Source: a virus. From it: a stretch of 64,000 bases of DNA. The DNA is taken from the IMG/VR virus record IMGVR_UViG_3300045988_152944. One strand, 5' to 3'. A model generated the notes under the pieces. It worked only from the letters and a program-made list of their open reading frames with translations, had not been told where the DNA came from and made no database searches. Positions 38,022-63,429 of this stretch are shown here, one piece after another; positions within the stretch are counted from its first letter, which is position 1, and every line of letters begins with the position of its first letter. The translations under genes were made by a program, and so were the position numbers.

Positions 38022-38050
38022 ATTATAACACATATCATATTTAATATCAA
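38022..38050 (-). promoter_or_regulatory. sigma-70/sigma-A type promoter P1 (leftward)
   Basis: TTGATA-17 nt-TATAAT on the minus strand. Confidence 0.7.
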
Positions 38051-38108
38051 CCTATGATGACATTTTTATAAAATTTTTAACATTTTTTAATTTTTCTGTC
38101 ATTGTAGG

Positions 38109-38137
38109 TTGACTTTTCTTTTCAAAGTTGTTATAAT
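38109..38137 (+). promoter_or_regulatory. consensus promoter P2 (rightward)
   Basis: TTGACT-17 nt-TATAAT. Confidence 0.75.
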
Positions 38138-38139
38138 TT

Positions 38140-38291
38140 GGGTGGTGGGCGGGTATAGATAAGAAGATCTTTTTTATTTATATATAAATATATAATATAT
38201 ATTCTATAATTATAACATATAATATGTTAAATATATATTAAAATATAATATAATAAAAAATAGTGATCTCATTCTCCCGACCACCCACCCC
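38140..38291. repeat. G-box / AT-core / C-box element between convergent promoters
   Basis: GGGTGGTGGGCGGG (38140-38153) and CCCGACCACCCACCCC (38276-38291) are imperfect inverted repeats. They bracket ~120 bp of almost pure A/T. Confidence 0.7.
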
Positions 38292-38292
38292 T

Positions 38293-38321
38293 ATTATACA
38301 CAGAAAAATACCATTTGTCAA
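38293..38321 (-). promoter_or_regulatory. consensus promoter P3 (leftward)
   Basis: TTGACA-17 nt-TATAAT on the minus strand. Confidence 0.75.
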
Positions 38322-38421
38322 CTACCAATGACAGAAAATACAAAAAAATAAAAAAATATTTTCCACAAAGCAAAACTACCACGCATGCTCACAGAATCTT
38401 AAAGAATTATGTCATCTACGG

Positions 38422-38450
38422 TTGACTTTTGTTGGCACATAGTGTATAAT
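38422..38450 (+). promoter_or_regulatory. consensus promoter P4 (rightward, early arm)
   Basis: TTGACT-17 nt-TATAAT. Confidence 0.8.
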
Positions 38451-38552
38451 ATTTATATATAAGATATAAAAGGAGTATAGTGATGTAACAATCCTAATTA
38501 AATAGAGCAACAAATTCCAACCAAATAACCAACTATGCTATGATGAGGCTAC

Positions 38553-38750
38553 ATGACACGTAAATCTAATCCTACAACAACAACAGCAACCCCGCAACCA
38601 CAAAAACCACCAAAATCCCAAACTCCGAATCCTCAACCTCCGACGACTCGACAATTGCCCCGCGCAATTATCCACAAAAAGAAGAAACCCAAAAATCTTC
38701 CGCCGGAACCAATAACCGAAGATTCTTACATAGATCAAGTTATGAGTTAA
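38553..38750 (+). CDS. questionable Pro/Thr/Lys-rich ORF (65 aa), or an untranslated C-rich leader
   Basis: Open frame but no convincing RBS; extreme C/A-rich, G-poor composition. Confidence 0.25.
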   Translation: MTRKSNPTTTTATPQPQKPPKSQTPNPQPPTTRQLPRAIIHKKKKPKNLPPEPITEDSYIDQVMS

Positions 38751-38775
38751 ACGCCTAACCCCAAGGAGCAACCAA

Positions 38776-39144
38776 ATGTGTATTCTTCAAAAAACACTGC
38801 CTTATACTACCAAAACACGCCAACGTCTGTCAAGGTACCCAACCATTTACATTATTTGCTATTTCGCACACGTCGGTTGTTTATCTTTCCCTTTCACCGG
38901 GAAGCATGATAATAAAGGTCGCCCCCTTGTGTACCAGTTTGATGATCACGATGGTCTATATCCCGAGTATTGCCTTCGCAACATTAACGAAGTCACTTCC
39001 GTTCACATCTGTGAATGGACGACGAATGCTGACGACGTACAACGACTCATAACCAAATGGCAAACCAAATACGACGAATATCGCGCCGCAATGATCAAAA
39101 CTTATGAGGAAAACTTACAAGCCTATGAGAATAACTCTAACTAA
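38776..39144 (+). CDS. early protein, MCIL-family paralog A (122 aa)
   Basis: AAGGAG RBS. Alignable with the 40053 gene: MCIL.K.LP..KT...L...P.IY, PLVY.FDDH.G.YPEY.LR. Confidence 0.7.
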   Translation: MCILQKTLPYTTKTRQRLSRYPTIYIICYFAHVGCLSFPFTGKHDNKGRPLVYQFDDHDGLYPEYCLRNINEVTSVHICEWTTNADDVQRLITKWQTKYDEYRAAMIKTYEENLQAYENNSN

Positions 39145-39850
39145 CCAAAGCTGTTTTGACTTACTCAAAACCACGCCAGATAAATCAGTCGACTTGGTTC
39201 TCATCAATCCGCCCTACGAGGTCTCTAGAGATACAAATTTCCAATCAGGGGAACCCAAAGGCGCTGACACCGACCGCTTTCGCGTGTCGATGGATTTCGG
39301 CGAGTGGGATAATAATTTCACGGGGTTGGATTTGGTAATCAAAGAGTGCTACAGACTCTTAAAAGACGGCGGAACTTTAATATGCTTTTACGATCTGTGG
39401 AAGCTCACAACCTTAAAACACTACTTTGAGCTCGCGAACTTTAAACAGCTCCGTTTCATCGAATGGGTGAAAACAAATCCGGTCCCGCTTAATAGCAAAA
39501 CGAACTACCTCACAAATTCCAGAGAGATAGCCATCGTGGGTGTGAAAAAAGGGAAGCCGACATTCAATTCAGAGTATGACAATGGCATTTATAATTTTCC
39601 CATATGTCACGACAAAGGCAGATTCCACCCCACCCAAAAACCTGTCGCATTGCTTGAAGACTTGATTCTCAAACATTCGCACGAGAACGATACTGTTCTC
39701 GATTGTTTCGCCGGGAGCGGTTCGACCGCTGTCGCTGCCCATAACACGAACAGGAATTTCATCGGATGTGAACTGTCGAAAGAGTATTTCGACAAAACCT
39801 TGCAACGGTTCGACGCACTAGGGTTCAAATACACGGAGGCGGACCTATGA
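39125..39850 (+). CDS. DNA methyltransferase (beta-class N6A/N4C, orphan)
   Basis: Motif IV DLVLINPPY lies near the N-terminus and motif I DCFAGSGST near the C-terminus. No nuclease partner is nearby. The start could also be ATG 39104. Confidence 0.85.
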   Translation: MRITLTNQSCFDLLKTTPDKSVDLVLINPPYEVSRDTNFQSGEPKGADTDRFRVSMDFGEWDNNFTGLDLVIKECYRLLKDGGTLICFYDLWKLTTLKHYFELANFKQLRFIEWVKTNPVPLNSKTNYLTNSREIAIVGVKKGKPTFNSEYDNGIYNFPICHDKGRFHPTQKPVALLEDLILKHSHENDTVLDCFAGSGSTAVAAHNTNRNFIGCELSKEYFDKTLQRFDALGFKYTEADL

Positions 39851-40047
39851 CCCTCAAAGAGTACATCAAAAAACATCCGTATAACAGCGACGGCGATAAC
39901 ATTATTGAATTCCTTCGCCACGACATTAAACTCCGTGCGCTGGTGCTAAGCCAGCTCGCGAGAGACGTAAGCATCGATATTCAATTGCTGTTGTATGAGA
40001 ACGAATCAAAACAAAAACAATTAGACAAGCAAAATAATAAGGAGTAA
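39847..40047 (+). CDS. hypothetical early protein (66 aa)
   Basis: ATGA overlap with the methyltransferase stop; GGAGG RBS. Confidence 0.6.
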   Translation: MTLKEYIKKHPYNSDGDNIIEFLRHDIKLRALVLSQLARDVSIDIQLLLYENESKQKQLDKQNNKE

Positions 40048-40052
40048 TCACT

Positions 40053-43517: not shown

Positions 43518-44009
43518 ATGTCTATTAAAATCAATCAAATTGCAGCAACCGCCAACATCATCAACGCTCTCGATGCAATGAAAGCAGACGAGAACATCAG
43601 CCTCGGCATCGAAGAAATCGAGTTTCCTGATGGAAGCAAAGAGAAATTCTATTACAACGGCGAGTCCGACAAACAAGCAGCCGTGCACTTCGCACAGATT
43701 TGCATCGATGTTTGCGCCGGCGACAGCGACAAAGCCAAACGTATGATGGCTTCGTGTTTCAAACTTCTCACTAAAGGCTACAATGTCGACGAAATTGTCC
43801 CGTCTGCGGAAAGCGAAATCAACACCGAAACTTATATTGATTATAAGAAAGGTGTCTTGCTCACGCCGTACGCGTCGGTTGTCGCGTCTCTCACCGAGGA
43901 TGAACTCAAAGCAACAAAGGGCAAAAAGAATCCCCTTACCAAATCACTCTTGCTCGAAAGATCGAGAACTGATTGTTTAGAAGACGCTCTTAAATATTAC
44001 GAGAGCTGA
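43518..44009 (+). CDS. hypothetical early protein (163 aa)
   Basis: AAAGGAGG RBS. Confidence 0.65.
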   Translation: MSIKINQIAATANIINALDAMKADENISLGIEEIEFPDGSKEKFYYNGESDKQAAVHFAQICIDVCAGDSDKAKRMMASCFKLLTKGYNVDEIVPSAESEINTETYIDYKKGVLLTPYASVVASLTEDELKATKGKKNPLTKSLLLERSRTDCLEDALKYYES

Positions 44010-44156
44010 ACCCCGCAAGGCCCGCACGAAAGTGTGAACGGCGCAAGCCCGTTGCCCTCTTAGGAGGGTGGCGCTCATGGTGTTCATAATGGCATCATCT
44101 TCGTAAAATAAAAATCTTGCTAATCGAAGACTAATGGCATAGAAAGGAGAATCATT

Positions 44157-44777: not shown

Positions 44778-46808
44778 ATGAGAAACATTCAAAAAATTAT
44801 CGAAAATATTGTTACAAAAGAACCCAATCCTGATACCAAATACACGCCACACCTGGTGTTACATTGGTACACAAAAACAGAAGGACAAATTTATCACGAT
44901 TTGTCTACTGGTGAGAGACTGTCACGTGATGACATAGATACGTTTTTCAGATGGGAGAACTTCTCTTATAATTATTTAAAATATTGCACGGGGGCGTCGC
45001 CTCGAATCACATATATTAAATACCATCACAAACAAAAAGTAATGGAATTGGCATATGTGAATATTCCAATGAATCGCGCCAAACCTGGCGAAATTCGTAC
45101 GTTTGAATATAACAAGAATTGGTCGGGCAAGACCGATAGGTATTTTGTTGATTTGTCCCAATATCCTCGCCGACTGTTTGGGAGCGATGGTATGCTCGCC
45201 CCGATAGTGATGGTGAAAAACATCATGCGGGACACTGGTGCTCATCGAAAGGTCCAAATTTATAATGAACTCTTTCCAGATGATAAGATAACAGCAATAA
45301 AATTCTCGTGGTCCAAAATAGAGTATGTGACAAAGTATCTCACATATCAAAGACAACTCACGATTGCAACATCAAAAACTGCAAAAGCGGCGCTTATTGC
45401 CAAAGGTAATAGTTTGCTTGCGGCTTCTCCCACAACATTTCCGAAAGAAATTATGAGTGTTGGTATTGTGAGGAATTTCCCTGGTATCTCTATTGTGGAG
45501 GCGAAGCCGTGGTTTGGCTTAACAACGCGATTTTATTACGATGGTAAAACTTTCGCAGCAGCCAAATCACCGAAGTTTGATGTAAGTTATGCTTGCTCAA
45601 ATATTAAAGATGTTTCAATCTACAATCCCGAAGATTTACAAAACGGGATGTTTAACAAGTATGCTGATTTGTTTGTTAAACCTGCACTCGAACCGGTAAG
45701 CTGGGACGATCGGTATCGTTGTAAAAATCCTGATCAAAATAATAAATTTATCAACTTACAAATATTGGCCGCAATGATCAAAAATCCCTTGTACGAACAG
45801 TTGGCAAAATCATACAAAGGAATCCAGTTACTGAATCTCACCAGAGCATACACCCAAGATGAACTGTTTGGTGACAACTTAAACAAAAAGGCCACAACAG
45901 TTGACAAGTGGTTGGGGTTAAACAAATATCAAATCAATCGTTTAATATCTGAACAAAACCCTAATGATCCCTATTCAACACGAAAAGGGATTAGCATTTT
46001 CCGAAAACTCGTTGGCGAAAATGCGTCCTCGTTGGATAATCACACAAGTGATATGTATATTGATCATTTGGATGCGCTCGCATCGCTGACCACAAACTAT
46101 TTATGGGATCCAGAACTAATTCCTTGGGCGAAGCAAATATTGCGAAAAATCGTCAAAAGCACCCAAGTGTCATATAATATCGAGTTGTTACTAGATGCAA
46201 TGCGTTTATGGCGGTCGTTAAATTGGCCACGTCCTACATTGCCAAACATATCCGTCTCTGAATTACAAAGACTTCATGATTTGTATATGACAATGTCAAA
46301 CGAACAGTTCAGACAACGCCAAGCAATGTATGCGGAGGAAACCCGCAAACAAGAGGAGCGTAGGCAAAAAGAAAATAAACTCAAACTGGAATTTCGTCAA
46401 CAACTGAATTATGAAGACGAGAATTATCTCATTCGACTGCCGGTTGATGGCGACGAAATCCAACAAGAAGGTTTGACGCTACACCATTGTGTGGGTGGCT
46501 ACGCCTATAGCCACGAGAGCGGTGCTACGACAATTATGTTTTTGCGTAAAAAGTCCGAACCTGATAAACCTTTCTACACCATTGAAGTAGAGATTGGACT
46601 TGCGGACGGCAAGGTTGCAGGATTGCGGATAAAGCAAGCGCATTGTGTAAACAATGGTTGGTTGGGTTTGTGCGTCTCAGCAGCGCAGTTTGTATATAAA
46701 TGGTGCCGCATCAAAAATATTGAGGTAAGGAAAGAAATTTTATTATGTAAGTCACATGGGTATAGCCCAACCAACCAGTTCTTGCCCGATAGTGTTTTGG
46801 AGGTTTAA
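44778..46808 (+). CDS. PcfJ-like protein (676 aa)
   Basis: C-terminal EGLTLHHCVGGYAYSHESGATTIMFLRKK...FYTIEVE resembles the PcfJ domain of conjugative elements, as recalled from memory; AAAGGAG RBS. Confidence 0.45.
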   Translation: MRNIQKIIENIVTKEPNPDTKYTPHLVLHWYTKTEGQIYHDLSTGERLSRDDIDTFFRWENFSYNYLKYCTGASPRITYIKYHHKQKVMELAYVNIPMNRAKPGEIRTFEYNKNWSGKTDRYFVDLSQYPRRLFGSDGMLAPIVMVKNIMRDTGAHRKVQIYNELFPDDKITAIKFSWSKIEYVTKYLTYQRQLTIATSKTAKAALIAKGNSLLAASPTTFPKEIMSVGIVRNFPGISIVEAKPWFGLTTRFYYDGKTFAAAKSPKFDVSYACSNIKDVSIYNPEDLQNGMFNKYADLFVKPALEPVSWDDRYRCKNPDQNNKFINLQILAAMIKNPLYEQLAKSYKGIQLLNLTRAYTQDELFGDNLNKKATTVDKWLGLNKYQINRLISEQNPNDPYSTRKGISIFRKLVGENASSLDNHTSDMYIDHLDALASLTTNYLWDPELIPWAKQILRKIVKSTQVSYNIELLLDAMRLWRSLNWPRPTLPNISVSELQRLHDLYMTMSNEQFRQRQAMYAEETRKQEERRQKENKLKLEFRQQLNYEDENYLIRLPVDGDEIQQEGLTLHHCVGGYAYSHESGATTIMFLRKKSEPDKPFYTIEVEIGLADGKVAGLRIKQAHCVNNGWLGLCVSAAQFVYKWCRIKNIEVRKEILLCKSHGYSPTNQFLPDSVLEV

Positions 46809-47570
46809 ATGAGTAATTTTATTGATATGACAGGCTGGGTAATGGCCGAACATGGGGTTGAAGGCAGTCGCCTGAAAGTAATTAAAAGAGTAGACAATTA
46901 TGTTGCTAACTGTGGTTCACAATCGGCACAATGGCTGTGTGAGTGTTCTTGTGAAAAACATACCCAATTTATTTTAAAAGCACAGCGAGTCAAAACAACC
47001 AAATCTTGTGGTTGTTTACGAACGGAAAAATCAGCCGAACGATTAAAACAAATGAATGCCAAACCCACTACTGTTGAATTAAGAGATGGTTACGCGGTTG
47101 GTTTTACACCTAAAAATGAAGAGTTTTGGTTTGATATAGAATTTATCGATTTTGTCAAAGCACATTGTTGGCATTACGATAAGTGCGGATATGTTCGGAG
47201 TCGTATAAATGGTAAGGGCGTTCGTCTACACCGATATGTTATGGGCGTAACCGACAGTGCTATTATTGTTGACCACATCGTTCATCCACCTTGGGGAGAA
47301 CATCAAGTTGATAATCGAAAATCAAATTTACGTCTCGTAACAAATAGCCAAAATAAAATGAACAGTAAAATCTCCAAAAATAACACAACGGGAGTCAAAG
47401 GCGTGAGTAAATCCGGAAATAAATATGTGGCTCGCATTATGATAAACGGTAAGTCCATATCATTGGGTTATTATTCAACTCTTGAAGAGGCCGCCAAAGC
47501 ACGTCAAGACGCAGAAAAACAATTCTTTGGTAATTATGCGTATGACACTTTTAATAATGAAACAACATAA
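46809..47570 (+). CDS. HNH homing endonuclease with a C-terminal AP2 DNA-binding domain
   Basis: HRYVM..VDHI..DNRKSNLRLVTNSQN (HNH_3 type), then TGVKGVSKSGNKYVARIMINGKSISLGYYSTLEEAAKAR (AP2). Abuts the upstream stop as TAAATG. Confidence 0.8.
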   Translation: MSNFIDMTGWVMAEHGVEGSRLKVIKRVDNYVANCGSQSAQWLCECSCEKHTQFILKAQRVKTTKSCGCLRTEKSAERLKQMNAKPTTVELRDGYAVGFTPKNEEFWFDIEFIDFVKAHCWHYDKCGYVRSRINGKGVRLHRYVMGVTDSAIIVDHIVHPPWGEHQVDNRKSNLRLVTNSQNKMNSKISKNNTTGVKGVSKSGNKYVARIMINGKSISLGYYSTLEEAAKARQDAEKQFFGNYAYDTFNNETT

Positions 47571-47581
47571 AGGAGGTATGT

Positions 47582-47797: not shown

Positions 47798-47808
47798 GAG
47801 GTAGCAAG

Positions 47809-54145: not shown

Positions 54146-54198
54146 TCACAACCACCTTGGGACACTTTCCTGTTTAGAAAGCCGAAAAAGGAAATTTT

Positions 54199-54423: not shown

Positions 54424-54435
54424 GGAGGCGTCTAA

Positions 54436-54660
54436 ATGATAAAACGATTAGGACGAACCATTTGTGTCAAATGCAGCGAAATAGTATGGGACACAGACGG
54501 CGACAAAAAATTAGCAAGAACCTTACCTCAAAGTTGTGATATCAACATCGAGGATTACGAAGATGGCGATGATTTGGATGATGAAATCGCCGACGCTCTT
54601 TCCGATTTAACCGGATTCTGCGTAGAAGGATTCAATTACACAATTAAAAATAATAAATAA
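54436..54660 (+). CDS. hypothetical early protein (74 aa)
   Basis: TAAGGAGG RBS. Confidence 0.6.
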   Translation: MIKRLGRTICVKCSEIVWDTDGDKKLARTLPQSCDINIEDYEDGDDLDDEIADALSDLTGFCVEGFNYTIKNNK

Positions 54661-54677
54661 AAAGGAGATAACAAATT

Positions 54678-55088
54678 ATGAAATTTAATTCTATTTACAA
54701 AAATGGCAAACCCGATTACTTCTTCATCACAATCGACAGCAAAAAAGGTGAACGCGCGTTCATCCAACCCTACTTTATCGTCACCGACATCGATCACCCG
54801 CGTCGTGGTCGTATCAAAGAGATGAACGTTCTCGTGAATACAAACGGTGTAATCGTCTATTACGGCAAAGCGACGCACGGTTACGGGTATTCACACTCGG
54901 CTGATGTCTACGGTGAACTCATCGACATTATTAGGGATTCCTACGGGAAAGAGCTGACAGATGCCGAAGAGAAAGAGCTTCGCAAAATCAACACTCACGA
55001 TGATGAATTGACGTTGTCGCCCGAATTGCTTGAACATCTCGCGGAACTTAACAACGTTGCTCTTTATGGAAAATTCAACAATCTTTAA
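54678..55088 (+). CDS. hypothetical early protein (136 aa)
   Basis: AAAGGAG RBS. Confidence 0.6.
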   Translation: MKFNSIYKNGKPDYFFITIDSKKGERAFIQPYFIVTDIDHPRRGRIKEMNVLVNTNGVIVYYGKATHGYGYSHSADVYGELIDIIRDSYGKELTDAEEKELRKINTHDDELTLSPELLEHLAELNNVALYGKFNNL

Positions 55089-55150
55089 CATTATTACTCA
55101 CAGGCGCTTGACAAACTCAGGCGCCTGTGATATAATTAGGAGGTATTACT

Positions 55151-55396
55151 ATGGCACTTAGAACAATAAATGGATTAGCAATTTGCAACAAAGATGATTA
55201 TGAGCAATTCTTTAACTTGCGCACAAACAACGGGATGAAAAACCCGTTTTCTGAGGAAAAAATCAAGAAAATCATCGAAGACTGGGATGATCTTGTATTA
55301 GCCAATGATGACCTGTGGGCCATTTATTGGGATATGTTGCGACAAGCAATTCAAGACAATTCAGAAGAAATCAATGCACAATGTGCAAATATTTAG
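55151..55396 (+). CDS. hypothetical early protein (81 aa)
   Basis: TAGGAGG RBS. Confidence 0.6.
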   Translation: MALRTINGLAICNKDDYEQFFNLRTNNGMKNPFSEEKIKKIIEDWDDLVLANDDLWAIYWDMLRQAIQDNSEEINAQCANI

Positions 55397-55406
55397 GAGG
55401 TGTTTT

Positions 55407-55721
55407 ATGGAACTGACCAACTACAAAACTTACAAAAAAGAAATGGAACGCATCGGCTACGACGCAGATATGACGCTCGACATGATCGAGCGTTGGGCGT
55501 CTGAATGCGACGGAAGTTATGGCTCACGCGATATTCACTATTGCGACCATTATCACCACGATTTCGCATTCGACTTGGTACGGCCGGCGTATTGGGAAAT
55601 TTGCGACGAAGCCACAGATCGTAGAATTTGCGTTGACAAATGTACGAATTGTGGCGATTTGAAGCCTGGCACTTATATAGGGGATGTGGTAATTGAACCT
55701 ATATACAGATTTAGAAAATAA
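55407..55721 (+). CDS. hypothetical early protein (104 aa)
   Basis: Start moved to ATG 55407 (TAGGAGG RBS). Confidence 0.6.
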   Translation: MELTNYKTYKKEMERIGYDADMTLDMIERWASECDGSYGSRDIHYCDHYHHDFAFDLVRPAYWEICDEATDRRICVDKCTNCGDLKPGTYIGDVVIEPIYRFRK

Positions 55722-55734
55722 TAGGAGGTGGCAC

Positions 55735-55938
55735 ATGTTTAAAGACTATAGTTTTTATGTCAAATGCAACGACAATCCTTTAATATTGGTTAAAGTTGTT
55801 GCAGACAATTATGACGAAGCTATAAAGTTTGCAAAAAGCTCATATGCTTCGGAATGCTCAATCTACGCCGACGATCGTGCAAATGATTGGCATATCGCTC
55901 CGCAATATTGCTATTGTATTAATAGGAGGTCTATATGA
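55735..55938 (+). CDS. hypothetical early protein (67 aa)
   Basis: Start moved to ATG 55735 (TAGGAGG RBS). Confidence 0.6.
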   Translation: MFKDYSFYVKCNDNPLILVKVVADNYDEAIKFAKSSYASECSIYADDRANDWHIAPQYCYCINRRSI

Positions 55939-56165
55939 ACACAACAATTCAAACAGAAGCAGTGGAGGTTTGTCCCTTCTGCGAACAAGAAAACGTTTAT
56001 CCCAATTGGGATGTCAGCAAGCAAGGCTACGTCGCCCAATGTCAGCATTGTGGTAAATTGATTATGCTTTGCGACGAATGTATGCGCGATGAGGATTCGT
56101 GCATTACTTGCAACTGGACAAAGGAGCACAATTGCTTCAGAGCTCCAGACTTATATCGTGATTAA
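55935..56165 (+). CDS. zinc-finger early protein (76 aa)
   Basis: CPFC..CQHC..CDEC..C.TC; TAGGAGG RBS; 4-nt overlap with the upstream gene. Confidence 0.6.
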   Translation: MNTTIQTEAVEVCPFCEQENVYPNWDVSKQGYVAQCQHCGKLIMLCDECMRDEDSCITCNWTKEHNCFRAPDLYRD

Positions 56166-56179
56166 TAGGAGGTGTCACA

Positions 56180-56572
56180 ATGAATGACAAACAATTAGAG
56201 GCCGCAAGGTCACAACTTAGCAATGAAATCGCAGCCATTGGCTACGGTTGGATCAACGGGAAATATCGTAATCCCCCTAAGAAATATCGCCTGCGTGAAA
56301 AAGAATTCGATTGCATCGATATGATTAACTCTCTGTTGTGTTATAGTTATAGCGGCTACTCAGACGATGCGGCTTGGATTCTTCACGACGAACTTAACAG
56401 TTATCATTCGTATCTTGCATCGTATGTAGATACACTTGGAGAAAAACGAGTAATCGAGTTGATTCAAGGACAGATTGATGATATTGAACGAGTGGGCTAC
56501 TCGGTATATACCGACAGTGAAGGGTGTACATATAACACCCTTATTTGGGAAAACGCGGAGGTAGCGAAATGA
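56180..56572 (+). CDS. hypothetical early protein (130 aa)
   Basis: TAGGAGG RBS. Confidence 0.65.
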   Translation: MNDKQLEAARSQLSNEIAAIGYGWINGKYRNPPKKYRLREKEFDCIDMINSLLCYSYSGYSDDAAWILHDELNSYHSYLASYVDTLGEKRVIELIQGQIDDIERVGYSVYTDSEGCTYNTLIWENAEVAK

Positions 56573-56754
56573 CAATTAAAGCACAAGAACTACTGCAAGA
56601 ATTATATGACGATACGTCGTTTGCCATTGACAGCGATACGGGTAACGCCGATGTAAATAAAGCATTAAAAACAATCGAAAATAACATTAACGAACTATTT
56701 AAGATGGCACTTTTAGAAAAGGCAAAAAAATATAACATAAAAATCAGGAGGTAA
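56569..56754 (+). CDS. hypothetical early protein (61 aa)
   Basis: Start moved to ATG 56569 (GGAGGT RBS; ATGA overlap). Confidence 0.55.
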   Translation: MTIKAQELLQELYDDTSFAIDSDTGNADVNKALKTIENNINELFKMALLEKAKKYNIKIRR

Positions 56755-56759
56755 TAAAA

Positions 56760-57110
56760 ATGTGGGTAGAAATTGATAATGAAAAAGCATTAGATATTCT
56801 TATGGATAGGGTAGCGTATTGGACAGACGATATGGAAGTACAGGAGTTGTACAATAAAATGTATGATAATATGGTTTTCGGCGGAGTTTTTGACCACGGC
56901 GAGTTCGACGTGAACGCTATTGTTGATAACGATTATATTAACTATACAAAAGTTGTAAGCAAGGGCGATGACGAATACGACGAACTTTTGAAAGTTTATA
57001 AGGACAACGACTGCTGCTGCGGCGATGTGTCTTGCAATACGACAATTTGTGATTATATTGAAGCGGTTGACAACGAAGAAGAGCCGACAATGTTTCTTAT
57101 CAGAATGTAA
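56760..57110 (+). CDS. acidic early protein (116 aa)
   Basis: CAGGAGG RBS. Confidence 0.65.
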   Translation: MWVEIDNEKALDILMDRVAYWTDDMEVQELYNKMYDNMVFGGVFDHGEFDVNAIVDNDYINYTKVVSKGDDEYDELLKVYKDNDCCCGDVSCNTTICDYIEAVDNEEEPTMFLIRM

Positions 57111-57130
57111 TAAAACGGAGGTAACTAATT

Positions 57131-57508
57131 ATGGGAAAAGCAGTAGCAATTAGTACATACGATATTGATCAAATCCGTAACATTATCAACGGCTTCAGTT
57201 ACGACACTCTTGTTGAGTGTTGCTCACAATTAGACGGCGACGCAGCCGTCTATCCTATGGATGACTTCGACGAAGTAATGGACTATCTTAAACCTTGGGA
57301 CCTGGCTCGAGCAGTGTATTATGGGGAGTTTGAACCTATACACAGTTATTTCCGAGTTAACGTCTATGGAAATCTCGAATCATCCAACGCCCCTATCGAA
57401 GATGGGTGGATAGACATTGACGAACTTGCTATATATGCCGTCGATTACAATGAAGACTTCGGTGATAATGAAATTTGTTCACTCCTCGACCAATGGGAAA
57501 AGGAATAA
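57131..57508 (+). CDS. acidic early protein (125 aa)
   Basis: CGGAGG RBS. Confidence 0.65.
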   Translation: MGKAVAISTYDIDQIRNIINGFSYDTLVECCSQLDGDAAVYPMDDFDEVMDYLKPWDLARAVYYGEFEPIHSYFRVNVYGNLESSNAPIEDGWIDIDELAIYAVDYNEDFGDNEICSLLDQWEKE

Positions 57509-57557
57509 AAAAATAATGAAGAGGTGGCTGAATAAGCCGCCTCGAAGGAGATAAAAA

Positions 57558-58058
57558 ATGAAAATTTATAGTGAACAAAGTTTGGCAGATTTTAAATTTT
57601 GGAGTGGTGCAGAAACCACCGCTCAACGCATTTGGGAAGAGCAAGGATCAGAAGGCTTTGACCAACTTGAAGCGATTTTGGAAGATTTATATCCCGACGG
57701 AATCGACGAAACAGACTTGAATGACTTGCTTTGGTTCGATGCCGACACCGTTTACGAATGGTTGGGAATCGAGGATGAAGAAGACGAAGATGAAGACGAC
57801 GAAGACACCGACGATGACGGTGAAGAAGACGAGGAAGACGACGAGGAAGAGGAAACTGAACCCGCCAGCGATTATGTTATTAACGTAGGTGACAGTTGGG
57901 ATGATCTGGCACCACATGACGCGTTTGCGACAAAAGAAGTTGCAATATCAATGGCAAAAGCAATGTCAAAAGCGCAGCACGACAAATGTGTAGAAGTCGT
58001 CTATAGTCCGTGTGACGATGTCGACACTAATGAAATTATTTGGCGTAATCAAAATTAA
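57558..58058 (+). CDS. highly acidic early protein with a ~35-residue D/E run (166 aa)
   Basis: GAAGGAG RBS; EDEEDEDEDDEDTDDDGEEDEEDDEEEETE. Confidence 0.65.
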   Translation: MKIYSEQSLADFKFWSGAETTAQRIWEEQGSEGFDQLEAILEDLYPDGIDETDLNDLLWFDADTVYEWLGIEDEEDEDEDDEDTDDDGEEDEEDDEEEETEPASDYVINVGDSWDDLAPHDAFATKEVAISMAKAMSKAQHDKCVEVVYSPCDDVDTNEIIWRNQN

Positions 58059-58072
58059 TATAGGAGGCTTAT

Positions 58073-58333
58073 ATGCAAATCACTAATCAAGAATACAACT
58101 TTTTAATGCAATTATCACACGACACCAAAACCGATTGCTGGTTTAACCTCACACAAGATGAGAAAGGGCGCGACGTCGTCGAAGACCTTGAAACCGGCGA
58201 TATACTCGATTTGGCCGAGGGCATCGATCTTTTGTTTGATGCTGTAAACGACGATATCATTCGTGCTTTCACTCCTGAAGAATCCGAGTTGTTTGCGTCG
58301 CTTGAACAAAAAATTATGCACGAATATTTATGA
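58073..58333 (+). CDS. acidic early protein (86 aa)
   Basis: TAGGAGG RBS. Confidence 0.6.
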   Translation: MQITNQEYNFLMQLSHDTKTDCWFNLTQDEKGRDVVEDLETGDILDLAEGIDLLFDAVNDDIIRAFTPEESELFASLEQKIMHEYL

Positions 58334-58347
58334 GGAGATAACCGAAT

Positions 58348-58776
58348 ATGGAATTCATGAAACAAAATGTAGCAAAACTCAATCAACAAGCAATCGACAA
58401 CCTCGACGATTTGATGGAAAGTGTAACAAGTTATGTGCTCCGCCACTGGGACGAATATGACGATCTGAAGCAGATCCCCCTCGAGGTGCTCGAACACGGT
58501 TGCGTAAGTGGAATCGTCAGTGGGCTCGTCTGGTATTCCGACACGACTGCTTATTACGCAAAAAACAAAGACGAGATTAATAAGCTTCTTTATGAAAAGA
58601 TGGACGAATGGGGGGTATATAGCCTCAACGAAATATTCTCTCGCGATCCGAGCTGGGACGAAGAAGACCCGCTGGCCCTTTATGACTACAATCAGAACCT
58701 TCTCGCTTGGTTCGGCTTCGAAGAAACAATGCGTAACTTTGCACGAGAATTTGAAGAATTCGAAGAACTTATTTAA
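58348..58776 (+). CDS. hypothetical early protein (142 aa)
   Basis: GAGGAG RBS. Confidence 0.65.
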   Translation: MEFMKQNVAKLNQQAIDNLDDLMESVTSYVLRHWDEYDDLKQIPLEVLEHGCVSGIVSGLVWYSDTTAYYAKNKDEINKLLYEKMDEWGVYSLNEIFSRDPSWDEEDPLALYDYNQNLLAWFGFEETMRNFAREFEEFEELI

Positions 58777-59504: not shown

Positions 59505-59693
59505 CTATTTGAAGAGATCGGGAGGGATGGATGCGAGGAAGTCAGCGTAATCACCCGAGAGGAGGACGGCGTCGTCATCGGACGTAGGCTGATAGTCGTT
59601 GATACCATCGGGGAACGTATCGAAGATAAAAGCGTCGCCTGGGGGGATGGGGATTGAGCGCGTGGCTTTTTTGGAATCCATCTGGAACCTCAT
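59505..59693 (-). CDS. acidic hypothetical protein (62 aa)
   Basis: AAGGAGG RBS, its own consensus promoter and its own terminator. Confidence 0.6.
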   Translation of the reverse strand: MRFQMDSKKATRSIPIPPGDAFIFDTFPDGINDYQPTSDDDAVLLSGDYADFLASIPPDLFK

Positions 59694-59724: not shown

Positions 59725-59753
59725 ATTATAACACAGGGAGAGTGAAAAGTCAA
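59725..59753 (-). promoter_or_regulatory. consensus promoter
   Basis: TTGACT-17 nt-TATAAT on the minus strand. The post -10 sequence ATAAATATAA is shared with P1. Confidence 0.75.
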
Positions 59754-59900
59754 CAGGGAGTGACAAAATATTTATTTTTTTTATATGTTTCTTTCCGGAG
59801 TGATAACAGGTCAAATAGATGCGCAATTTCATTAACGCGCAACACCGCAGGTGTAAGCGTTTGAAACACTGGCGAAGCCGCGTAGGGGTTGAAGGGGACG

Positions 59901-61218: not shown

Positions 61219-61260
61219 GGCGGCGGACATCTCCCCGTCGCCTTTGGTTTGCCCGCCGCC
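61219..61260 (-). terminator. putative terminator after ssb
   Basis: GGCGGCGG..CCGCCGCC outer stem (alternative inner stem possible), followed by GGTTTT on the minus strand. Confidence 0.4.
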
Positions 61261-61635
61261 TTAAAACGGCAGTTCTTCGTAGTCCTCTGAGGATTCGGGC
61301 GTAACCTCGTCCGCCGCCACTTCAACAGAGTCGTCGTTGTTGGTTTCGTCTACCGGTCCACTACGTTGCTTAACCACGGTGAACGAAAACTTATTAGGTT
61401 CACCGGTTCCAGCGCCATTCAGGACGAGGTAGACATACCCGCCCCTTTGAAGATTGTGTTCGGCGTAAGTCGCTTGCCTACCCATGGCGACAACTTCGAT
61501 GCTGCACCATTTGCCGAAATCTTTACCAGTGCAGACAGTATAGGCCGCCGTCTTTACTTTGTTACCGCGAGCCAATTGCTTTTCGCCGATGGTGATATTG
61601 GTGATGATTTTCCCGAATACGGTCGTCTCAATCAT
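61261..61635 (-). CDS. ssb: single-stranded DNA-binding protein (124 aa)
   Basis: OB-fold-sized N-terminal domain and an acidic tail ending DYEELPF, matching the canonical SSB D-(D/E)-(L/I)-P-F tip; AGGAGGG RBS. Confidence 0.75.
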   Translation of the reverse strand: MIETTVFGKIITNITIGEKQLARGNKVKTAAYTVCTGKDFGKWCSIEVVAMGRQATYAEHNLQRGGYVYLVLNGAGTGEPNKFSFTVVKQRSGPVDETNNDDSVEVAADEVTPESSEDYEELPF

Positions 61636-61679
61636 TAGATTATCCCTCCTGTGGGGTGTTATTATTGTGCGGGGCTTTT

Positions 61680-62048
61680 TTACTTGGCCGCCGCCGCCGC
61701 TTTTTGTGCTGCCCTCATTGCTTTCATGCGTTCTGAGTTTGCGATACGTTGCTCTTCGGTCATAGTGCGGGTCACGCGGACACTTCTTAATGACAAAAAT
61801 TCCTTAGGTGCCTCAACCTCATACGCCACCGGCTGCCCATCATAAGTGGATATCGAGCGCAGGATATATTCTTCAGGACTCTTTGTCATTAATCCCCTGA
61901 GTTTGGTGACTATTGTGTTGTCACTGGTCCAGATGGTCATCTTGTCGCCGTTGCGTTCAAAAACGATCGAAGTCTCTTGTTCGTCCAAAGGGTTATTCGG
62001 GAAAGCGACCAAATCGTCAACCGTGTACGTCTTTTTTTGTTTAACCAT
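61680..62048 (-). CDS. hypothetical protein (122 aa)
   Basis: GGAGGT RBS downstream of a consensus promoter. Confidence 0.6.
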   Translation of the reverse strand: MVKQKKTYTVDDLVAFPNNPLDEQETSIVFERNGDKMTIWTSDNTIVTKLRGLMTKSPEEYILRSISTYDGQPVAYEVEAPKEFLSLRSVRVTRTMTEEQRIANSERMKAMRAAQKAAAAAK

Positions 62049-62082
62049 AAGCTAAACCTCCATTATTCTTTTTTATACTTCT

Positions 62083-62111
62083 ATTATACCACACGGCGGC
62101 GGGTATGTCAA
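62083..62111 (-). promoter_or_regulatory. consensus promoter
   Basis: TTGACA-17 nt-TATAAT on the minus strand. Confidence 0.75.
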
Positions 62112-62117
62112 CACAGG

Positions 62118-62147
62118 GTGACAAATACTTCTAACTTGTCGTATAAT
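62118..62147 (+). promoter_or_regulatory. back-to-back divergent promoter
   Basis: GTGACA-18 nt-TATAAT; its -35 is the other half of the TGTCA-N8-TGACA palindrome. Confidence 0.45.
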
Positions 62148-62296
62148 GAAGACACCTTATTCCACAAACGAAAATACCTCGGTCGATAAATCTGTCGACC
62201 AAACTCTTTTCTTTTACTACAGAGCTTAAATAAGCTCAAGAAAAACCAAAAAAGGGTATCTCAGACCATTTTCCCCCATCACGCGTCCGCCTACAC

Positions 62297-62325
62297 ACAA
62301 AAAATACCCAGGCTGCTATGCCTGG
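62297..62325 (-). terminator. rho-independent terminator
   Basis: CCAGGC-N6-GCCTGG followed by a T-run on the minus strand; 10 nt after the stop at 62335. Confidence 0.65.
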
Positions 62326-62334
62326 ATATCTTTC

Positions 62335-62763
62335 TTACTCTTCATCGTCCCATTCGTCGTCTTCTTCGTCCGCCAGCATAATCTGGCACTCGGGGCAGAT
62401 CTTGTTGTACATCGCCACCCATCCTTTCGGATTTCTCCATACCGTCCTGGTGGTCACGTCACACCAATGAGCGATGATGCCGACGACGGACTTGATCGCC
62501 TGGGGACGATCGTACTCGAATTTGAAGCACGGGCACTCACGAATGTTGTACTCCTCACCCAACGCCCCCTGATGCGTCTCATACTTGCTCCCTTCCACCG
62601 GGATGCCAGTCTTGAACTTCGAGCAGGAATGTTCTTTATTGTCGCGGGCGTTCATGCAAGACCAGCACAAGGTGTCTGTCTTCAGATTGTTGAAGAAGAT
62701 TCTGGCGTTGATGGCTTCGACTTCCGACTTGGTTAATTTGGTTGCTTTAATGACTCTGTTCAT
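62335..62763 (-). CDS. Cys-rich acidic-tailed protein, possible regulator (142 aa)
   Basis: AGGAGA RBS; CWSC..CSKF..CPCF..CPEC; C-terminus EEDDEWDDEE. Confidence 0.6.
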   Translation of the reverse strand: MNRVIKATKLTKSEVEAINARIFFNNLKTDTLCWSCMNARDNKEHSCSKFKTGIPVEGSKYETHQGALGEEYNIRECPCFKFEYDRPQAIKSVVGIIAHWCDVTTRTVWRNPKGWVAMYNKICPECQIMLADEEDDEWDDEE

Positions 62764-62793
62764 ATCACCGTCTCCTAATCTTTTTATACTTTA

Positions 62794-62822
62794 AGTATAA
62801 CATAGGTTCGACAGTTTGTCAA
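62794..62822 (-). promoter_or_regulatory. near-consensus promoter
   Basis: TTGACA-17 nt-TATACT on the minus strand. Confidence 0.7.
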
Positions 62823-63159
62823 CATATTTTTAGAAAAAAAAATAAATATTTTTCAAGAAAAAAATAGTGCAAAATTTTCCTATTCAATAGTGTAAAAATT
62901 TACCATCGGCGGCGGACATCTTTTTATGCGGCTGCGCCCGTTTTTTACCCGTTAGCACTGGTTTAGAAAACTGAACATATCGCTACCAAAACCGTCCTGG
63001 CGGAGCTGCATTTTTATAAAAAAACAGGGTATTTTGGGATATTTGTGAAGAAAATTGTAACACGATGTCGACGGCTGATGACGGTCGATGATGACGTAAT
63101 GTACCATAAACGGTACATAACTTTAGACAAAAATGACACCGTCCGCCGCCTGAAGTAGG

Positions 63160-63197
63160 ACAAAATATTCCTATTATAGAACAAAATATTCCTATTA
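63160..63197 (+). repeat. 17-mer direct repeat at 21-bp period
   Basis: ACAAAATATTCCTATTA x2; a degenerate third copy (AAAATTTTCCTATTCAA) near 62872. Confidence 0.8.
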
Positions 63198-63231
63198 AAA
63201 TGACAAAAAATTACCATCGATTTTGCGGCGA

Positions 63232-63261
63232 GTTGTCCACTTTTCCACATAGTTATCCACA
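63232..63261 (+). promoter_or_regulatory. DnaA-box cluster
   Basis: TTGTCCACT, TTTTCCACA and a perfect TTATCCACA in tandem direct orientation (consensus TTWTNCACA). Confidence 0.6.
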
Positions 63262-63407
63262 TCAAAAGTCACGTTTTCGATGCCTTTCGTTACCAAAATT
63301 GTATGGTTTTTTTAACGAGCGATGACGACGGATGATGCCAAAAGTATCAGTATACTGACACTATGTTTCGTAGAGTAATGTTTATTATAAGCGACAAATA
63401 ACCCTTT

Positions 63408-63429
63408 AATGTCACTTATAATTGACATT
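63408..63429. promoter_or_regulatory. perfect palindromic operator-like site
   Basis: AATGTCA-N8-TGACATT; the same TGTCA-N8-TGACA architecture as at six promoters. Confidence 0.6.

What the first reader, a model, noticed from the sequence alone, without database searches (positions are those of the whole stretch)
38045..63429. Recurrent TGTCA-N8-TGACA palindrome overlapping the -35 of at least six promoters
Seven sites share the architecture TGTCA-8 nt-TGA(C/T)(A/T). Six of them use one half-site as the -35 hexamer of a consensus promoter:
- 38097-38114 (P2)
- 38410-38427 (P4)
- 38316-38333 (P3)
- 38045-38062 (P1, with TGATA)
- 59748-59765
- 62106-62123
The seventh, 63408-63429, is a perfect AATGTCA-N8-TGACATT in the ORF-free right end. 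At 62106-62123 the two halves serve as -35 elements of back-to-back divergent promoters. The fixed 8-nt spacing and dyad symmetry suggest a dimeric phage or host regulator that gates all host-RNAP-dependent promoters together. The promoter at 62794-62822 lacks the motif.
Basis: seen in the sequence. Interest (0 to 1): 0.65.

Follow-up and report, generated by a model that had tools for sequence, protein, structure and literature searches.

The report
Shared upstream tag on phage promoters
Nearly every host-type promoter of this uncultured human-gut phage carries the same short sequence (TGTCA) exactly 7 bases upstream of its -35 box, a conserved control element that most likely lets one still-unidentified protein regulate all these promoters together.

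Summary
All seven sites exist at the stated coordinates. No other match (up to 1 mismatch) occurs in the 64 kb, and none lies in coding DNA. Seven of the nine strong sigma-A/sigma-70-type promoters carry TGTCA exactly 7 nt upstream of the -35 hexamer.

The window is about half of a ~110-145 kb human-gut phage that encodes a YonO-type RNA polymerase. The element is conserved in relatives whose proteins are only 27-90% identical. It is also present in two deeper lineages. It is absent from 98 promoters of other YonO phages, and a sister lineage has AAACCCC at that position instead.

A logo of 24 non-redundant promoters shows (T)GTCAY at -47..-42 and G at -36, about as conserved as the -35 and -10 boxes. 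Only the 5-bp core mirrors the -35. Y-42 and G-36 are not mirrored. The one stand-alone palindrome (63408-63429) is missing from six close relatives.

The element is therefore real, selected, clade-specific and promoter-coupled. The best reading is an operator for a probably phage-encoded repressor that occludes the -35 (confidence about 0.4). The main rival is an upstream element that recruits RNA polymerase (about 0.3). No binding protein was identified. This is a new member of a known kind, of moderate interest.

The parts
38022..38062 (-). P1: TGTCA (38062-38058), 7 nt, -35 TTGATA (38050-38045), 17-nt spacer, -10 TATAAT (38027-38022). It drives the 189-aa ORF, a guanylate-kinase-like ORF and the YonO-type RNA polymerase.
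   Evidence: TGTCA is invariant at this promoter in L005-L010, even where the -35 is TTGCAT.
38097..38137 (+). P2: TGTCA-ttgtagg-TTGACT, 17-nt spacer, TATAAT. The transcript starts with GGGTGGTGGGCGGG and there is no ORF downstream.
   Evidence: The orthologues read CGTCA or TGTCA.
38293..38333 (-). P3: TGTCA-ttggtag-TTGACA, 17-nt spacer, TATAAT. It is convergent with P2 and its G-rich transcript starts with GGGGTGGGTGGTCGGG.
   Evidence: The orthologues read GATCA in L007-L009 and AGCAC in L010.
38410..38450 (+). P4: TGTCA-tctacgg-TTGACT, 17-nt spacer, TATAAT. This is the promoter of the rightward early operon (paralogous 122- and 143-aa ORFs, DNA methylase and others).
   Evidence: The orthologues read AGTCA, GGTCA, CGTCA or TGTCA.
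59725..59765 (-). Promoter TGTCA-ctccctg-TTGACT, 17-nt spacer, TATAAT. It drives a 62-aa ORF (59505-59693).
   Evidence: It is conserved in L081, L083 and L085.
62083..62147 (.). Back-to-back promoter pair sharing TGTCAACACAGGGTGACA. The leftward promoter is TTGACA-17-TATAAT and drives the 122-aa ORF and an SSB-like ORF. The rightward promoter is GTGACA-18-TATAAT and gives a short ORF-less transcript.
   Evidence: In L081, L084, L085 and L086 the distal half reads TGTCG. The rightward promoter is not found in L081 or L085.
63408..63429 (.). Perfect palindrome AATGTCA-N8-TGACATT with no usable -10 on either side. It lies in a window-specific insertion.
   Evidence: It is absent from L081-L086, and only the right half is shared with L083.
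62794..62822 (-). Strong promoter without the element (TCTAA at the element's position). It drives the 142-aa Cys-rich ORF.
   Evidence: The homologous gene's own promoter also lacks the element in lineages L406 and L407.
55108..55136 (+). Perfect-consensus promoter without the element (ACTCA). It is embedded in its own inverted repeat, TCACAGGCGC-N13-GCGCCTGTGA.
   Evidence: It is conserved in L081, L083 and L085.
33629..36825 (-). YonO-type single-subunit RNA polymerase, split here into 556-aa and 407-aa ORFs by a 302-nt insert. It is the presumed polymerase for promoters that do not carry the element.
   Evidence: Pfam RdRP; uninterrupted 960-aa members in the same cluster.
62335..62763 (-). 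142-aa Cys-rich protein with a confident C-terminal three-helix bundle. It is a weak candidate for the binding protein.
   Evidence: Its family was recovered only from relatives of this phage, and all four contigs examined also carry the element. There is no structural or sequence match to any known DNA-binding fold.

Best explanation
The motif is a selected cis-regulatory element. It consists of (T)GTCAY at about -47..-42 plus G at -36, held in fixed register with the -35 hexamer of nearly every sigma-A/sigma-70-type promoter. It occurs in a clade of ~110-145 kb human-gut phages that carry their own YonO-type RNA polymerase.

Its 5-bp core is the exact reverse complement of the -35 core, so the element plus the -35 form an 18-bp dyad centred near -38.5.

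I think it is most likely the operator of a clade-specific, probably phage-encoded, dimeric DNA-binding protein whose promoter-proximal half-site is the -35 itself. Binding would exclude sigma region 4 and switch all host-polymerase promoters off together. These include P1, which makes the phage polymerase, and the two ORF-less convergent promoters P2 and P3. The switch could be an early-to-late shut-off once the phage polymerase has taken over, or a genome-wide silencer like MrpR/SPBRE in SPbeta.

Shown: the element, its fixed register, its conservation, its clade specificity and its absence from coding DNA.
Inferred: that a protein binds it, that the protein is a dimer, that it is phage-encoded, and that it represses.
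For: 1. Non-random and promoter-locked. Seven of 9 strong intergenic promoters carry TGTCA at exactly the same offset. There are no matches elsewhere in the 64 kb.

2. Under selection. A logo of 24 non-redundant promoters gives 1.4-1.9 bits at each of G-46, T-45, C-44 and A-43. That is comparable with the -35 and -10 positions. The -35/-10 spacer is near 0 bits.

3. Conserved across divergence. The element survives in L007-L010, where neighbouring proteins are 27-90% identical and the flanking DNA is randomised. It also survives in lineages L406 and L407, where the SSB is only 40% identical.

4. Clade-specific. None of 98 promoters from other YonO phages has TGTCA there. A sister lineage at 56% polymerase identity has AAACCCC instead. 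Only 1-2 of about 97 independent bacterial promoters have it.

5. Dyad with the -35. An independent 5-mer would be the reverse complement of a -35 5-mer with probability of about 2/1024. The information profile is mirror-symmetric, with the outermost positions -47 and -30 weakest in both halves.

6. Consensus core. The promoters already have consensus -35, a 17-bp spacer and consensus -10. This is typical of repressed promoters rather than activator-dependent ones.

7. Half-site alone is not specific. TGTCA/TGACA occurs 150 times in the window at the expected frequency, so specificity must come from the pairing.

8. Precedents. The identical consensus TGTcaN8tgACA is the operator of the repressor PpsR and overlaps sigma-70 promoters (PMC2654016). 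In the YonO phage SPbeta, the master repressor MrpR binds a repeated dyad in about 10 promoter regions, including that of the yonP-yonO polymerase operon (PMC10516654; sites located).

9. Spacing. Dyad centres of divergent promoter pairs are 50-52 bp and 94-96 bp apart in the window, L005 and L007-L009, which is about 5 and about 9 helical turns. This is weak support.
Against: - Symmetry stops at 5 bp. The two other conserved positions, Y-42 (22/24) and G-36 (21/24), have no mirror partner.
- The distal half is better kept than the proximal half. P1 has TTGATA in the window and TTGCAT in L010 while TGTCA stays intact. This fits an oriented upstream element better than a symmetric dimer site.
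- There is no conserved stand-alone operator. Site 7 is window-specific, and every other dyad in the clade is attached to a promoter.
- No candidate repressor was found. About 55 early ORFs gave no helix-turn-helix or other DNA-binding family. The 142-aa protein has no structural match. There is no MrpR homologue in the window.
- The other half of the genome was not examined for genes.
- The host is unknown, so a host factor cannot be excluded.
Confidence: 0.4

Rival explanations
1. The element is positive and oriented. (T)GTCAY plus G-36 would be read by a monomeric factor docked on RNA polymerase (sigma region 4 or the alpha C-terminal domain), or by the host polymerase itself. This would mark phage promoters for preferential recruitment. 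The match to an inverted -35 would then be secondary.
For: - The conserved positions are asymmetric: Y-42 and G-36 are not mirrored.
- G at -36 is the rarest base at that position in 103 bacterial promoters (11%) but occurs in 88% of promoters here.
- The distal TGTCA is kept where the -35 is poor: TTGCAT with an extended -10 in L010 P1, and TTGATA in the window P1.
- The element also accompanies promoters with weak -10 boxes (L005:14312, L238:632, L007:15261).
- It is never found without a promoter, apart from the non-conserved site 7.
- It sits between A/T-rich tracts resembling UP-element subsites.
- From memory: Spx bound to the alpha C-terminal domain reads a short element near -44 in Bacillus.
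Against: - Most of these promoters are already at consensus and should not need help.
- The exact reverse-complement relation to the -35 core would be a coincidence (about 0.002).
- The centre at about -38.5 and full overlap with the -35 do not fit class II activators at -41.5.
- Generic Bacillota-type promoters do not show the element, so it is not an intrinsic polymerase preference, unless the unknown host differs.
Confidence: 0.3
2. The element is the site of a host regulator that the phage exploits, in the way phi29 uses Spo0A boxes. Its host-type promoters would then be silenced or licensed according to host physiology.
For: - No phage DNA-binding protein was found.
- A different upstream element in the sister lineage could reflect a different host.
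- The element covers the promoter of the phage polymerase operon, the logical master switch.
Against: - The bacterial genome scan gave scattered hits. Most were in TTT-TGTCA-AAA contexts or were back-to-back promoter pairs, with no enriched taxon.
- Known Bacillota sites do not fit (consensus sequences from memory): the Spo0A box TGTCGAA needs G at position 5, and TnrA/GlnR is TGTNA-N7-TNACA, one base shorter.
- PpsR belongs to purple bacteria.
Confidence: 0.12
3. The distal half is an inverted -35 bound by sigma-A itself, or a relic of back-to-back bidirectional promoter modules that spread through the genome.
For: - The 62106 site is exactly such a module.
- Back-to-back promoter pairs sharing TGTCAA-N6-TTGACA made up about 10 of 120 bacterial hits.
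- P1 and the 59753 promoter share 21 nt around the -10, which suggests copying of promoter cassettes.
Against: - Position -42 is a pyrimidine in 22 of 24 promoters. On the other strand the hexamer therefore reads RTGACA, not TTGACA, which looks like selection away from a functional -35.
- Most sites have no -10 on the far side.
- A neutral relic would not survive divergence to 27-60% protein identity.
Confidence: 0.08
4. The element has no function of its own. It would be hitch-hiking sequence in recently duplicated promoter cassettes.
For: Several promoters share more than the core boxes, for example TTGACTTTT, and TGTGTTATAATATAAATATAA in P1 and the 59753 promoter.
Against: - The N7 between the element and the -35, and the 17-nt spacer, have diverged freely between paralogues and orthologues while GTCA stays.
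- The element is retained in lineages with 40-60% protein identity.
Confidence: 0.03

Closest known systems
PpsR/CrtJ operator of purple photosynthetic bacteria (TGTcaN8tgACA)
   Same: The 18-bp consensus is identical. It overlaps sigma-70-type promoters, binding represses, and about 15 copies form one regulon (PMC2654016).
   Different: PpsR sites usually occur as tandem pairs 7-8 nt apart, whereas here each promoter has a single site. PpsR is a PAS plus Fis-type HTH protein of Proteobacteria. No such protein was found in the window, and the phage's relatives infect Bacillota. The resemblance is in the site only and is almost certainly convergent.
SPBRE / MrpR (YopR) master-repressor system of Bacillus phage SPbeta
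   Same: SPbeta is also a phage with a YonO polymerase. It has a short dyad repeated in about 10 intergenic promoter regions, built into the core promoter in fixed register. The promoter of the polymerase operon (yonP-yonO) is among them, and one protein silences them together (PMC10516654).
   Different: The sequence differs: ATACA-N7-TGTAT, as I deduced from five MrpR-bound promoters. The position differs: spacer/-10 rather than upstream/-35. There is no MrpR homologue in the window (tblastn E = 8.9). Lysogeny has not been shown for this phage.
Lambdoid OR/OL operators bound by CI and Cro (own knowledge)
   Same: These are 17-18 bp dyads overlapping the -35 or -10 of strong early promoters, bound by small phage-encoded dimers that shut off early transcription.
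   Different: Lambdoid operators come in clustered triplets at two loci. Here single sites sit at about 15 promoters spread over the genome. No Cro/CI-like helix-turn-helix ORF was detected.
Class II activator sites (CRP/FNR family, centred at -41.5; own knowledge)
   Same: Both are dyads whose proximal half overlaps the -35 region at a fixed distance from the start site.
   Different: The centre here is inferred at about -38.5. The proximal half coincides fully with a consensus -35 instead of replacing a poor one. The half-site spacing is N8, not N4 or N6.
Spx / alpha-CTD '-44 element' and UP elements (own knowledge)
   Same: Both are short upstream elements next to the -35, read in a fixed register together with RNA polymerase and flanked by A/T-rich DNA.
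   Different: The sequences differ (AGCA or A/T tracts against GTCAY...G). Spx-type elements are not inverted copies of the -35.

Membership tests
Dimeric-repressor operator overlapping a promoter (generic) | Dyad symmetry of the conserved positions | tested here: inconclusive
   The 5+5 bp core is exactly symmetric and the information profile is mirrored. The further conserved positions Y-42 and G-36 are not mirrored.
Dimeric-repressor operator overlapping a promoter (generic) | The site can exist and be conserved independently of a promoter | tested here: not met
   The only stand-alone site (63408-63429) is absent from six close relatives. All other dyads in the clade are promoter-linked.
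Dimeric-repressor operator overlapping a promoter (generic) | A cognate DNA-binding protein is encoded by the phage or host | tested here: inconclusive
   No DNA-binding family was found among about 55 window ORFs. The 142-aa candidate has no fold match. The other half of the genome and the host were not examined.
Dimeric-repressor operator overlapping a promoter (generic) | Protein binding excludes RNA polymerase and lowers transcription | not testable with these tools
   This needs footprinting and reporter assays.
PpsR/CrtJ regulon | Consensus TGT-N12-ACA (TGTcaN8tgACA) | tested here: met
PpsR/CrtJ regulon | Two adjacent palindromes 7-8 nt apart | tested here: not met
   Each promoter has a single site. 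Centre-to-centre distances are 52, 94 and 219 bp.
PpsR/CrtJ regulon | A PpsR protein (PAS domains plus C-terminal HTH) is present | tested here: not met
   No PAS or HTH_8 hit in the window ORFs scanned. The phage's relatives are Bacillota phages.
SPbeta SPBRE/MrpR | Repeated element in many promoter regions of a YonO phage, including the polymerase operon promoter | tested here: met
   SPbeta side.
SPbeta SPBRE/MrpR | SPBRE sequence (15-bp motif; core ATACA-N7-TGTAT as deduced here) | tested here: not met
   The sequence and the position within the promoter are both different.
SPbeta SPBRE/MrpR | MrpR/YopR homologue (tyrosine-recombinase-like repressor) | tested here: not met
   tblastn of YopR against the window gives a best E-value of 8.9. 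The rest of the genome was not searched.
Class II activator site (CRP/FNR type) | Dyad centred at about -41.5, replacing a weak -35 | tested here: not met
   The centre is about -38.5, assuming the -10 lies at -12..-7. The -35 is at consensus in 17 of 24 promoters. Transcription start sites were not mapped.
UP element | A/T-rich -59..-38 with no G/C-specific core | tested here: not met
   The flanks are A/T-rich, but the conserved core is G-46, T-45, C-44 plus G-36.
Spo0A box (TGTCGAA; consensus from memory) | CGAA at positions 4-7 | tested here: not met
   Position 5 is A in 23 of 24 promoters, and positions 6-7 are Y and N. TGTCG occurs only as a variant in some relatives.
TnrA/GlnR site (TGTNA-N7-TNACA; consensus from memory) | 17-bp dyad with an N7 spacer | tested here: not met
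   The spacer is N8 in all sites. There is 1 window match to TGTCA-N7-TGACA against 3 at N8.

The most novel reading that the evidence does not exclude
The element is a phage-specific 'promoter tag': an inverted copy of the -35 core plus G-36. A small phage protein of no known fold would read it, docking beside or in place of sigma region 4. The narrowly distributed 142-aa Cys-rich protein is a possible candidate, since its own promoter is exempt from the tag in three of the four lineages examined. Such a tag would let the phage tell its roughly 15 host-polymerase promoters apart from the thousands of host promoters that share the same -35 and -10. The phage could then switch only its own promoters on or off while host transcription continues. 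The different tag (AAACCCC) in the sister lineage would then show co-evolution of reader and tag.
Probability: 0.18. Interest if true: 0.7.

Novelty: new member of a known kind. Interest (0 to 1): 0.42.

Why it matters
This phage group is common in human-gut metagenomes: the protein clusters examined occur on hundreds of contigs, and several contig titles say 'human gut metagenome'. It has no cultured member.

The element provides a ready-made map of the phage's host-polymerase regulon, about 15 promoters per genome. That map includes the promoter that launches the phage's own YonO-type polymerase. The element also gives a concrete bait for finding the regulator that controls the hand-over from host to phage transcription.

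If it is a host factor, it would reveal how the phage senses host state and would help identify the host.

Tried and rejected
- **Nucleotide similarity to known phages:** none found. Identity came only from protein hits.
- **Binding protein by homology:** Pfam and PHROGs on about 55 ORFs gave no helix-turn-helix, no MerR/Xre/LuxR family and no HU-like protein.
- **The 142-aa Cys-rich ORF:**
  - An alignment of 17 homologues gave an AlphaFold2 model with mean pLDDT 71 and a confident C-terminal three-helix bundle.
  - Foldseek against the PDB found nothing with E below 2.
  - A PDB profile search and a second database search with the profile found nothing beyond the same narrow family.
- **Other first-gene candidates (122, 71 and 189 aa):** no informative PDB sequence match; two found nothing and the 189-aa ORF gave only weak, uninformative hits.
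- **Host identification:**
It returned scattered Clostridia and Streptococcus hits in UP-like contexts.
  - An apparent enrichment of TGTCA among other promoters in those loci was an artefact of back-to-back partners of the selected hits.
  - There are no tRNA genes in the window.
- **Methylation idea:** G-36 makes GTTGAC (GTYRAC), and the early operon encodes an N6/N4 methylase. GTYRAC sites are at expected frequency genome-wide, and nothing links the enzyme to that site, so the idea was dropped.
- **Known sites rejected as members:** Spo0A, TnrA/GlnR, the PhoB pho box, WalR and IHF consensus sequences (recalled from memory) did not fit on sequence or spacing.
- **Late-gene promoters:** upstream regions of the late genes showed no obvious shared motif on inspection. 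This was not pursued.

Full report
**1. The observation**

- TGTCA-N8-TGAYW matches 10 times on the two strands (7 loci) against 0.78 expected.
- The perfect palindrome TGTCA-N8-TGACA matches 3 times against 0.06 expected.
- With one mismatch allowed, the only seven hits in 64 kb are the same seven sites.
- GTCA-N8-TGAC gives 6 against 0.77 expected. The oriented form TGTCAY-N6-TTGA gives 7 against 0.47 expected.
- No hit lies in coding DNA.
- The pentamer alone is not unusual: 150 copies, at the expected frequency. Among spacings 0-20, only N8 stands out.

My own scan for TTGACA-16/17/18-TATAAT with at most one mismatch finds nine strong, correctly oriented intergenic promoters. Seven carry TGTCA exactly 7 nt upstream of the -35 hexamer.

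The two exceptions are:
It has perfect consensus and sits inside its own inverted repeat, TCACAGGCGC-N13-GCGCCTGTGA.

The back-to-back pair at 62106-62123 is confirmed. The seventh site is a perfect 22-bp palindrome but has no usable -10 on either side.

**2. What genome this is**

There is no nucleotide match to catalogued phages.

The 556-aa ORF at 35155-36825(-) is a homologue of SPbeta YonO, the single-subunit two-barrel RNA polymerase. It is 28-36% identical over more than 80% of its length to YonO of SPbeta and to homologues in Enterocloster, Clostridium and Bacillus phages. It carries the Pfam RdRP domain.

Related contigs are 95-145 kb, and several are titled 'human gut metagenome'. 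The window is therefore about half of a genome.

Genes run leftward from 38 kb: polymerase, exonuclease, terminase, portal and tail. They run rightward from 38.4 to 59 kb as about 50 small ORFs, mostly orphans. These include a DNA methylase and PcfJ, DpnD/PcfM, LPD18 and DUF7222 domains. They run leftward again from 59 to 63 kb.

The host is unknown. Strong Shine-Dalgarno sites and the phage relatives point to Bacillota.

**3. Conservation**

In close relatives (L001-L006, L081-L086) the sites are retained.

In L007-L010 the neighbouring proteins are only 27-90% identical to those of the window, and the surrounding DNA and the 17-nt spacers have diverged. The four promoters of the 38-kb cluster nevertheless persist, with the element at the same offset:
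- P1 always reads TGTCA, even in L010 where its -35 is TTGCAT.
- P2 reads CGTCA or TGTCA.
- P4 reads AGTCA, GGTCA, CGTCA or TGTCA.
- P3 reads GATCA, and AGCAC in L010.

Parts of relatives' genomes that lie outside the window add eight or more further promoters with the element.

Two deeper lineages were reached through homologues of the 142-aa protein. In L406 the SSB is only 40% identical. L406 carries the element on 5 promoters in 12 kb, and L407 on 6-7 promoters in 15 kb.

**4. The logo**

I built a logo from 24 non-redundant promoters. Positions are numbered with the -35 hexamer at -35..-30.

| Position | Base | Count or information |
|---|---|---|
| -47 | T | 0.66 bit |
| -46 | G | 20/24 |
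| -45 | T | 23/24 |
| -44 | C | 22/24 |
| -43 | A | 23/24 |
| -42 | pyrimidine | 22/24 |
| -36 | G | 21/24 (1.8 bits) |

Positions -46 to -43 carry 1.4-1.9 bits each. The -35/-10 spacer carries almost none.

The element is therefore (T)GTCAY-N4-RG directly abutting TTGACA. Its 5-bp core is the exact reverse complement of the -35 core TGACA. The information profile of the two halves is mirror-symmetric. Y-42 and G-36 have no mirror partner.

G at -36 is the rarest base at that position in 103 bacterial promoters (11%).

**5. Specificity**

- None of 98 strong promoters in 70 loci of other YonO-encoding phages has TGTCA at that offset.
- A sister lineage at 56% polymerase identity keeps the promoter cluster and the G-rich transcript. 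It has AAACCCC directly upstream of the -35 instead.
- In about 860 kb of bacterial DNA fetched by the pattern scan, the independent promoters show the element only once or twice in about 97. An apparent enrichment turned out to be the back-to-back partners of the selected hits.
- Among the rows returned by a truncated scan of viral contigs, only this clade carries more than two copies per contig.

The element is therefore specific to this phage group.

**6. The stand-alone palindrome**

Site 7 (63408-63429) lies in a segment that does not align with six close relatives. They have 40-100 bp of other sequence there, and only L083 shares the right half. Every other dyad found in the clade's loci is attached to a promoter. 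There is thus no conserved free-standing operator.

**7. Mechanism**

Shown: a selected, clade-specific, promoter-coupled element.

Inferred: something reads it. Because the bare pentamer occurs 150 times in the window, specificity must come from its pairing with the -35. Either a dimer reads both halves, or a factor reads the distal part while polymerase holds the -35.

I favour the first option, a repressor that occludes the -35, at about 0.4. The reasons are:
- The exact dyad relation has a chance probability of about 0.002.
- The information profile is mirrored.
- The consensus-strength core promoters should not need an activator.
- An identical operator, PpsR, represses sigma-70 promoters.
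- In SPbeta, the master repressor MrpR binds a repeated dyad built into about 10 promoters. One of them is the promoter of the yonP-yonO polymerase operon. I located the shared core ATACA-N7-TGTAT at yonP, yonX, yonT, aimR and yopV.

A single repressor on P1 and on all other host-type promoters would silence the whole phage or shut off its early phase.

Against this reading:
- The conserved positions Y-42 and G-36 are asymmetric.
- The distal half is kept better than the proximal half: TTGATA and TTGCAT occur at P1 while TGTCA stays intact.
- There are no conserved free-standing sites.
- No repressor gene was found.

These points favour the main rival at about 0.3. In that reading the element is an oriented upstream element read together with RNA polymerase, acting positively.

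A host regulator (0.12), sigma binding to an inverted -35 or a relic of bidirectional modules (0.08), and neutral hitch-hiking (0.03) are less likely. Selection for a pyrimidine at -42 moves the distal hexamer away from TTGACA on the other strand. The element has also outlived deep divergence.

**8. Candidate reader**

Homology searches on about 55 ORFs found no DNA-binding family.

The 142-aa ORF at 62335-62763 has eight invariant or near-invariant cysteines and a confidently predicted C-terminal three-helix bundle. Its family was recovered only from relatives of this phage, and all four contigs examined carry the element. In three of those four lineages its own promoter lacks the element. 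In the fourth it sits inside an early operon.

It has no Foldseek, PDB-sequence, Pfam or PHROG match. It is a lead, not a finding.

**9. Comparison with known systems, and novelty**

- The site matches the PpsR/CrtJ consensus exactly. It fails that family's other features: paired sites, the PpsR protein, and a proteobacterial host.
- It works most like SPBRE/MrpR of SPbeta. It differs in sequence, in position within the promoter and, as far as the window shows, in the protein.
- It does not fit class II activator geometry, UP elements, Spo0A boxes or TnrA/GlnR sites.

I rate it a new member of a known kind: a multi-copy, promoter-embedded control element of a phage regulon. Interest is moderate.

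Noticed in passing
window 38138-38300: P2 and P3 are convergent promoters with no ORF between them. Both transcripts begin with G-tracts (GGGTGGTGGGCGGG and GGGGTGGGTGGTCGGG, an inverted repeat), and they flank a ~110-bp core of almost pure A/T. The G-rich start is conserved in L007-L010 and in the 56%-identity lineage. At least 9 of 14 close-relative metagenome contigs end inside this region, at variable positions. This could be a transcription-primed replication origin (R-loop or G-quadruplex) or a pair of small RNAs. It is certainly fragile for assembly.
   Followed up: partly
window 44008-44087 (+): A twister-sister self-cleaving ribozyme (Rfam RF02681, 64 bits against a gathering score of 34, full length) lies between early ORFs.
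   Followed up: no
window 10750-12294 (-): A HEARO RNA (RF02033, 133 bits, 12082-12294) lies directly upstream of a 434-aa HNH ORF (10750-12054). This is the arrangement of an IscB/omega-RNA (OMEGA) element inside the late gene block.
   Followed up: no
window 31020-32290 (-): A TnpB/IS605-OrfB ORF (31112-32209; Pfam OrfB_IS605 and Cas12f1-like_TNB) is present. In relatives that lack it, the same place holds a promoter with the element, TGTCActaaaatTTGACA, upstream of the SbcD-like exonuclease gene. In the window that promoter has been replaced.
   Followed up: partly
window 33629-36825 (-): The YonO-type polymerase gene is split into 556-aa and 407-aa ORFs by a 302-nt insert (34853-35154). 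Uninterrupted 960-aa versions sit in the same 90% cluster. The insert folds better than shuffled sequence (z = -2.7) but matches no Rfam family. It may be an unclassified intron or a mobile insertion.
   Followed up: partly
window 63232-63262: There are three adjacent DnaA-box-like 9-mers (TTGTCCACT, TTTTCCACA, TTATCCACA) in the ORF-poor right end, conserved in most close relatives examined. Other tandem repeats lie nearby: AAATGACCCTAT twice, TAGNACAAAATATTCCTATTA three times, and GTGTGCAAACTCG-like repeats.
   Followed up: no
window 61219-63706: GGCGGCGGAC occurs 10 times in the window with up to 1 mismatch, against 1.3 expected. Seven copies are clustered between 61.2 and 63.7 kb, on both strands, and are often intergenic. 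The sequence is GCC-box-like. A 253-aa ORF (46809-47570) has a weak AP2-domain hit.
   Followed up: no
window 55098-55136 (+): A perfect-consensus promoter sits inside a 10-bp inverted repeat (TCACAGGCGC...GCGCCTGTGA) that spans from the -35 to the -10. It is conserved in relatives. This may be a second, separate operator, or a terminator overlapping a promoter.
   Followed up: no
L347 and L348 (sister lineage, 56% polymerase identity): Promoters of this lineage share AAACCCC immediately upstream of TTGACA instead of TGTCA...G. This suggests lineage-specific upstream promoter tags.
   Followed up: partly
window 44778-58776 (+): The early region carries domains typical of the leading regions of conjugative plasmids and of anti-restriction islands: PcfJ, DpnD/PcfM, LPD18, an Api92-like ferredoxin domain and DUF7222.
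   Followed up: no
window 62148-62330 (+): The rightward promoter of the 62106 pair has no ORF downstream. The transcript contains a hairpin, GGTCGA-N8-TCGACC, followed by a T-rich run (read from the sequence), so it may be a small RNA. This promoter is missing in some close relatives.
   Followed up: no
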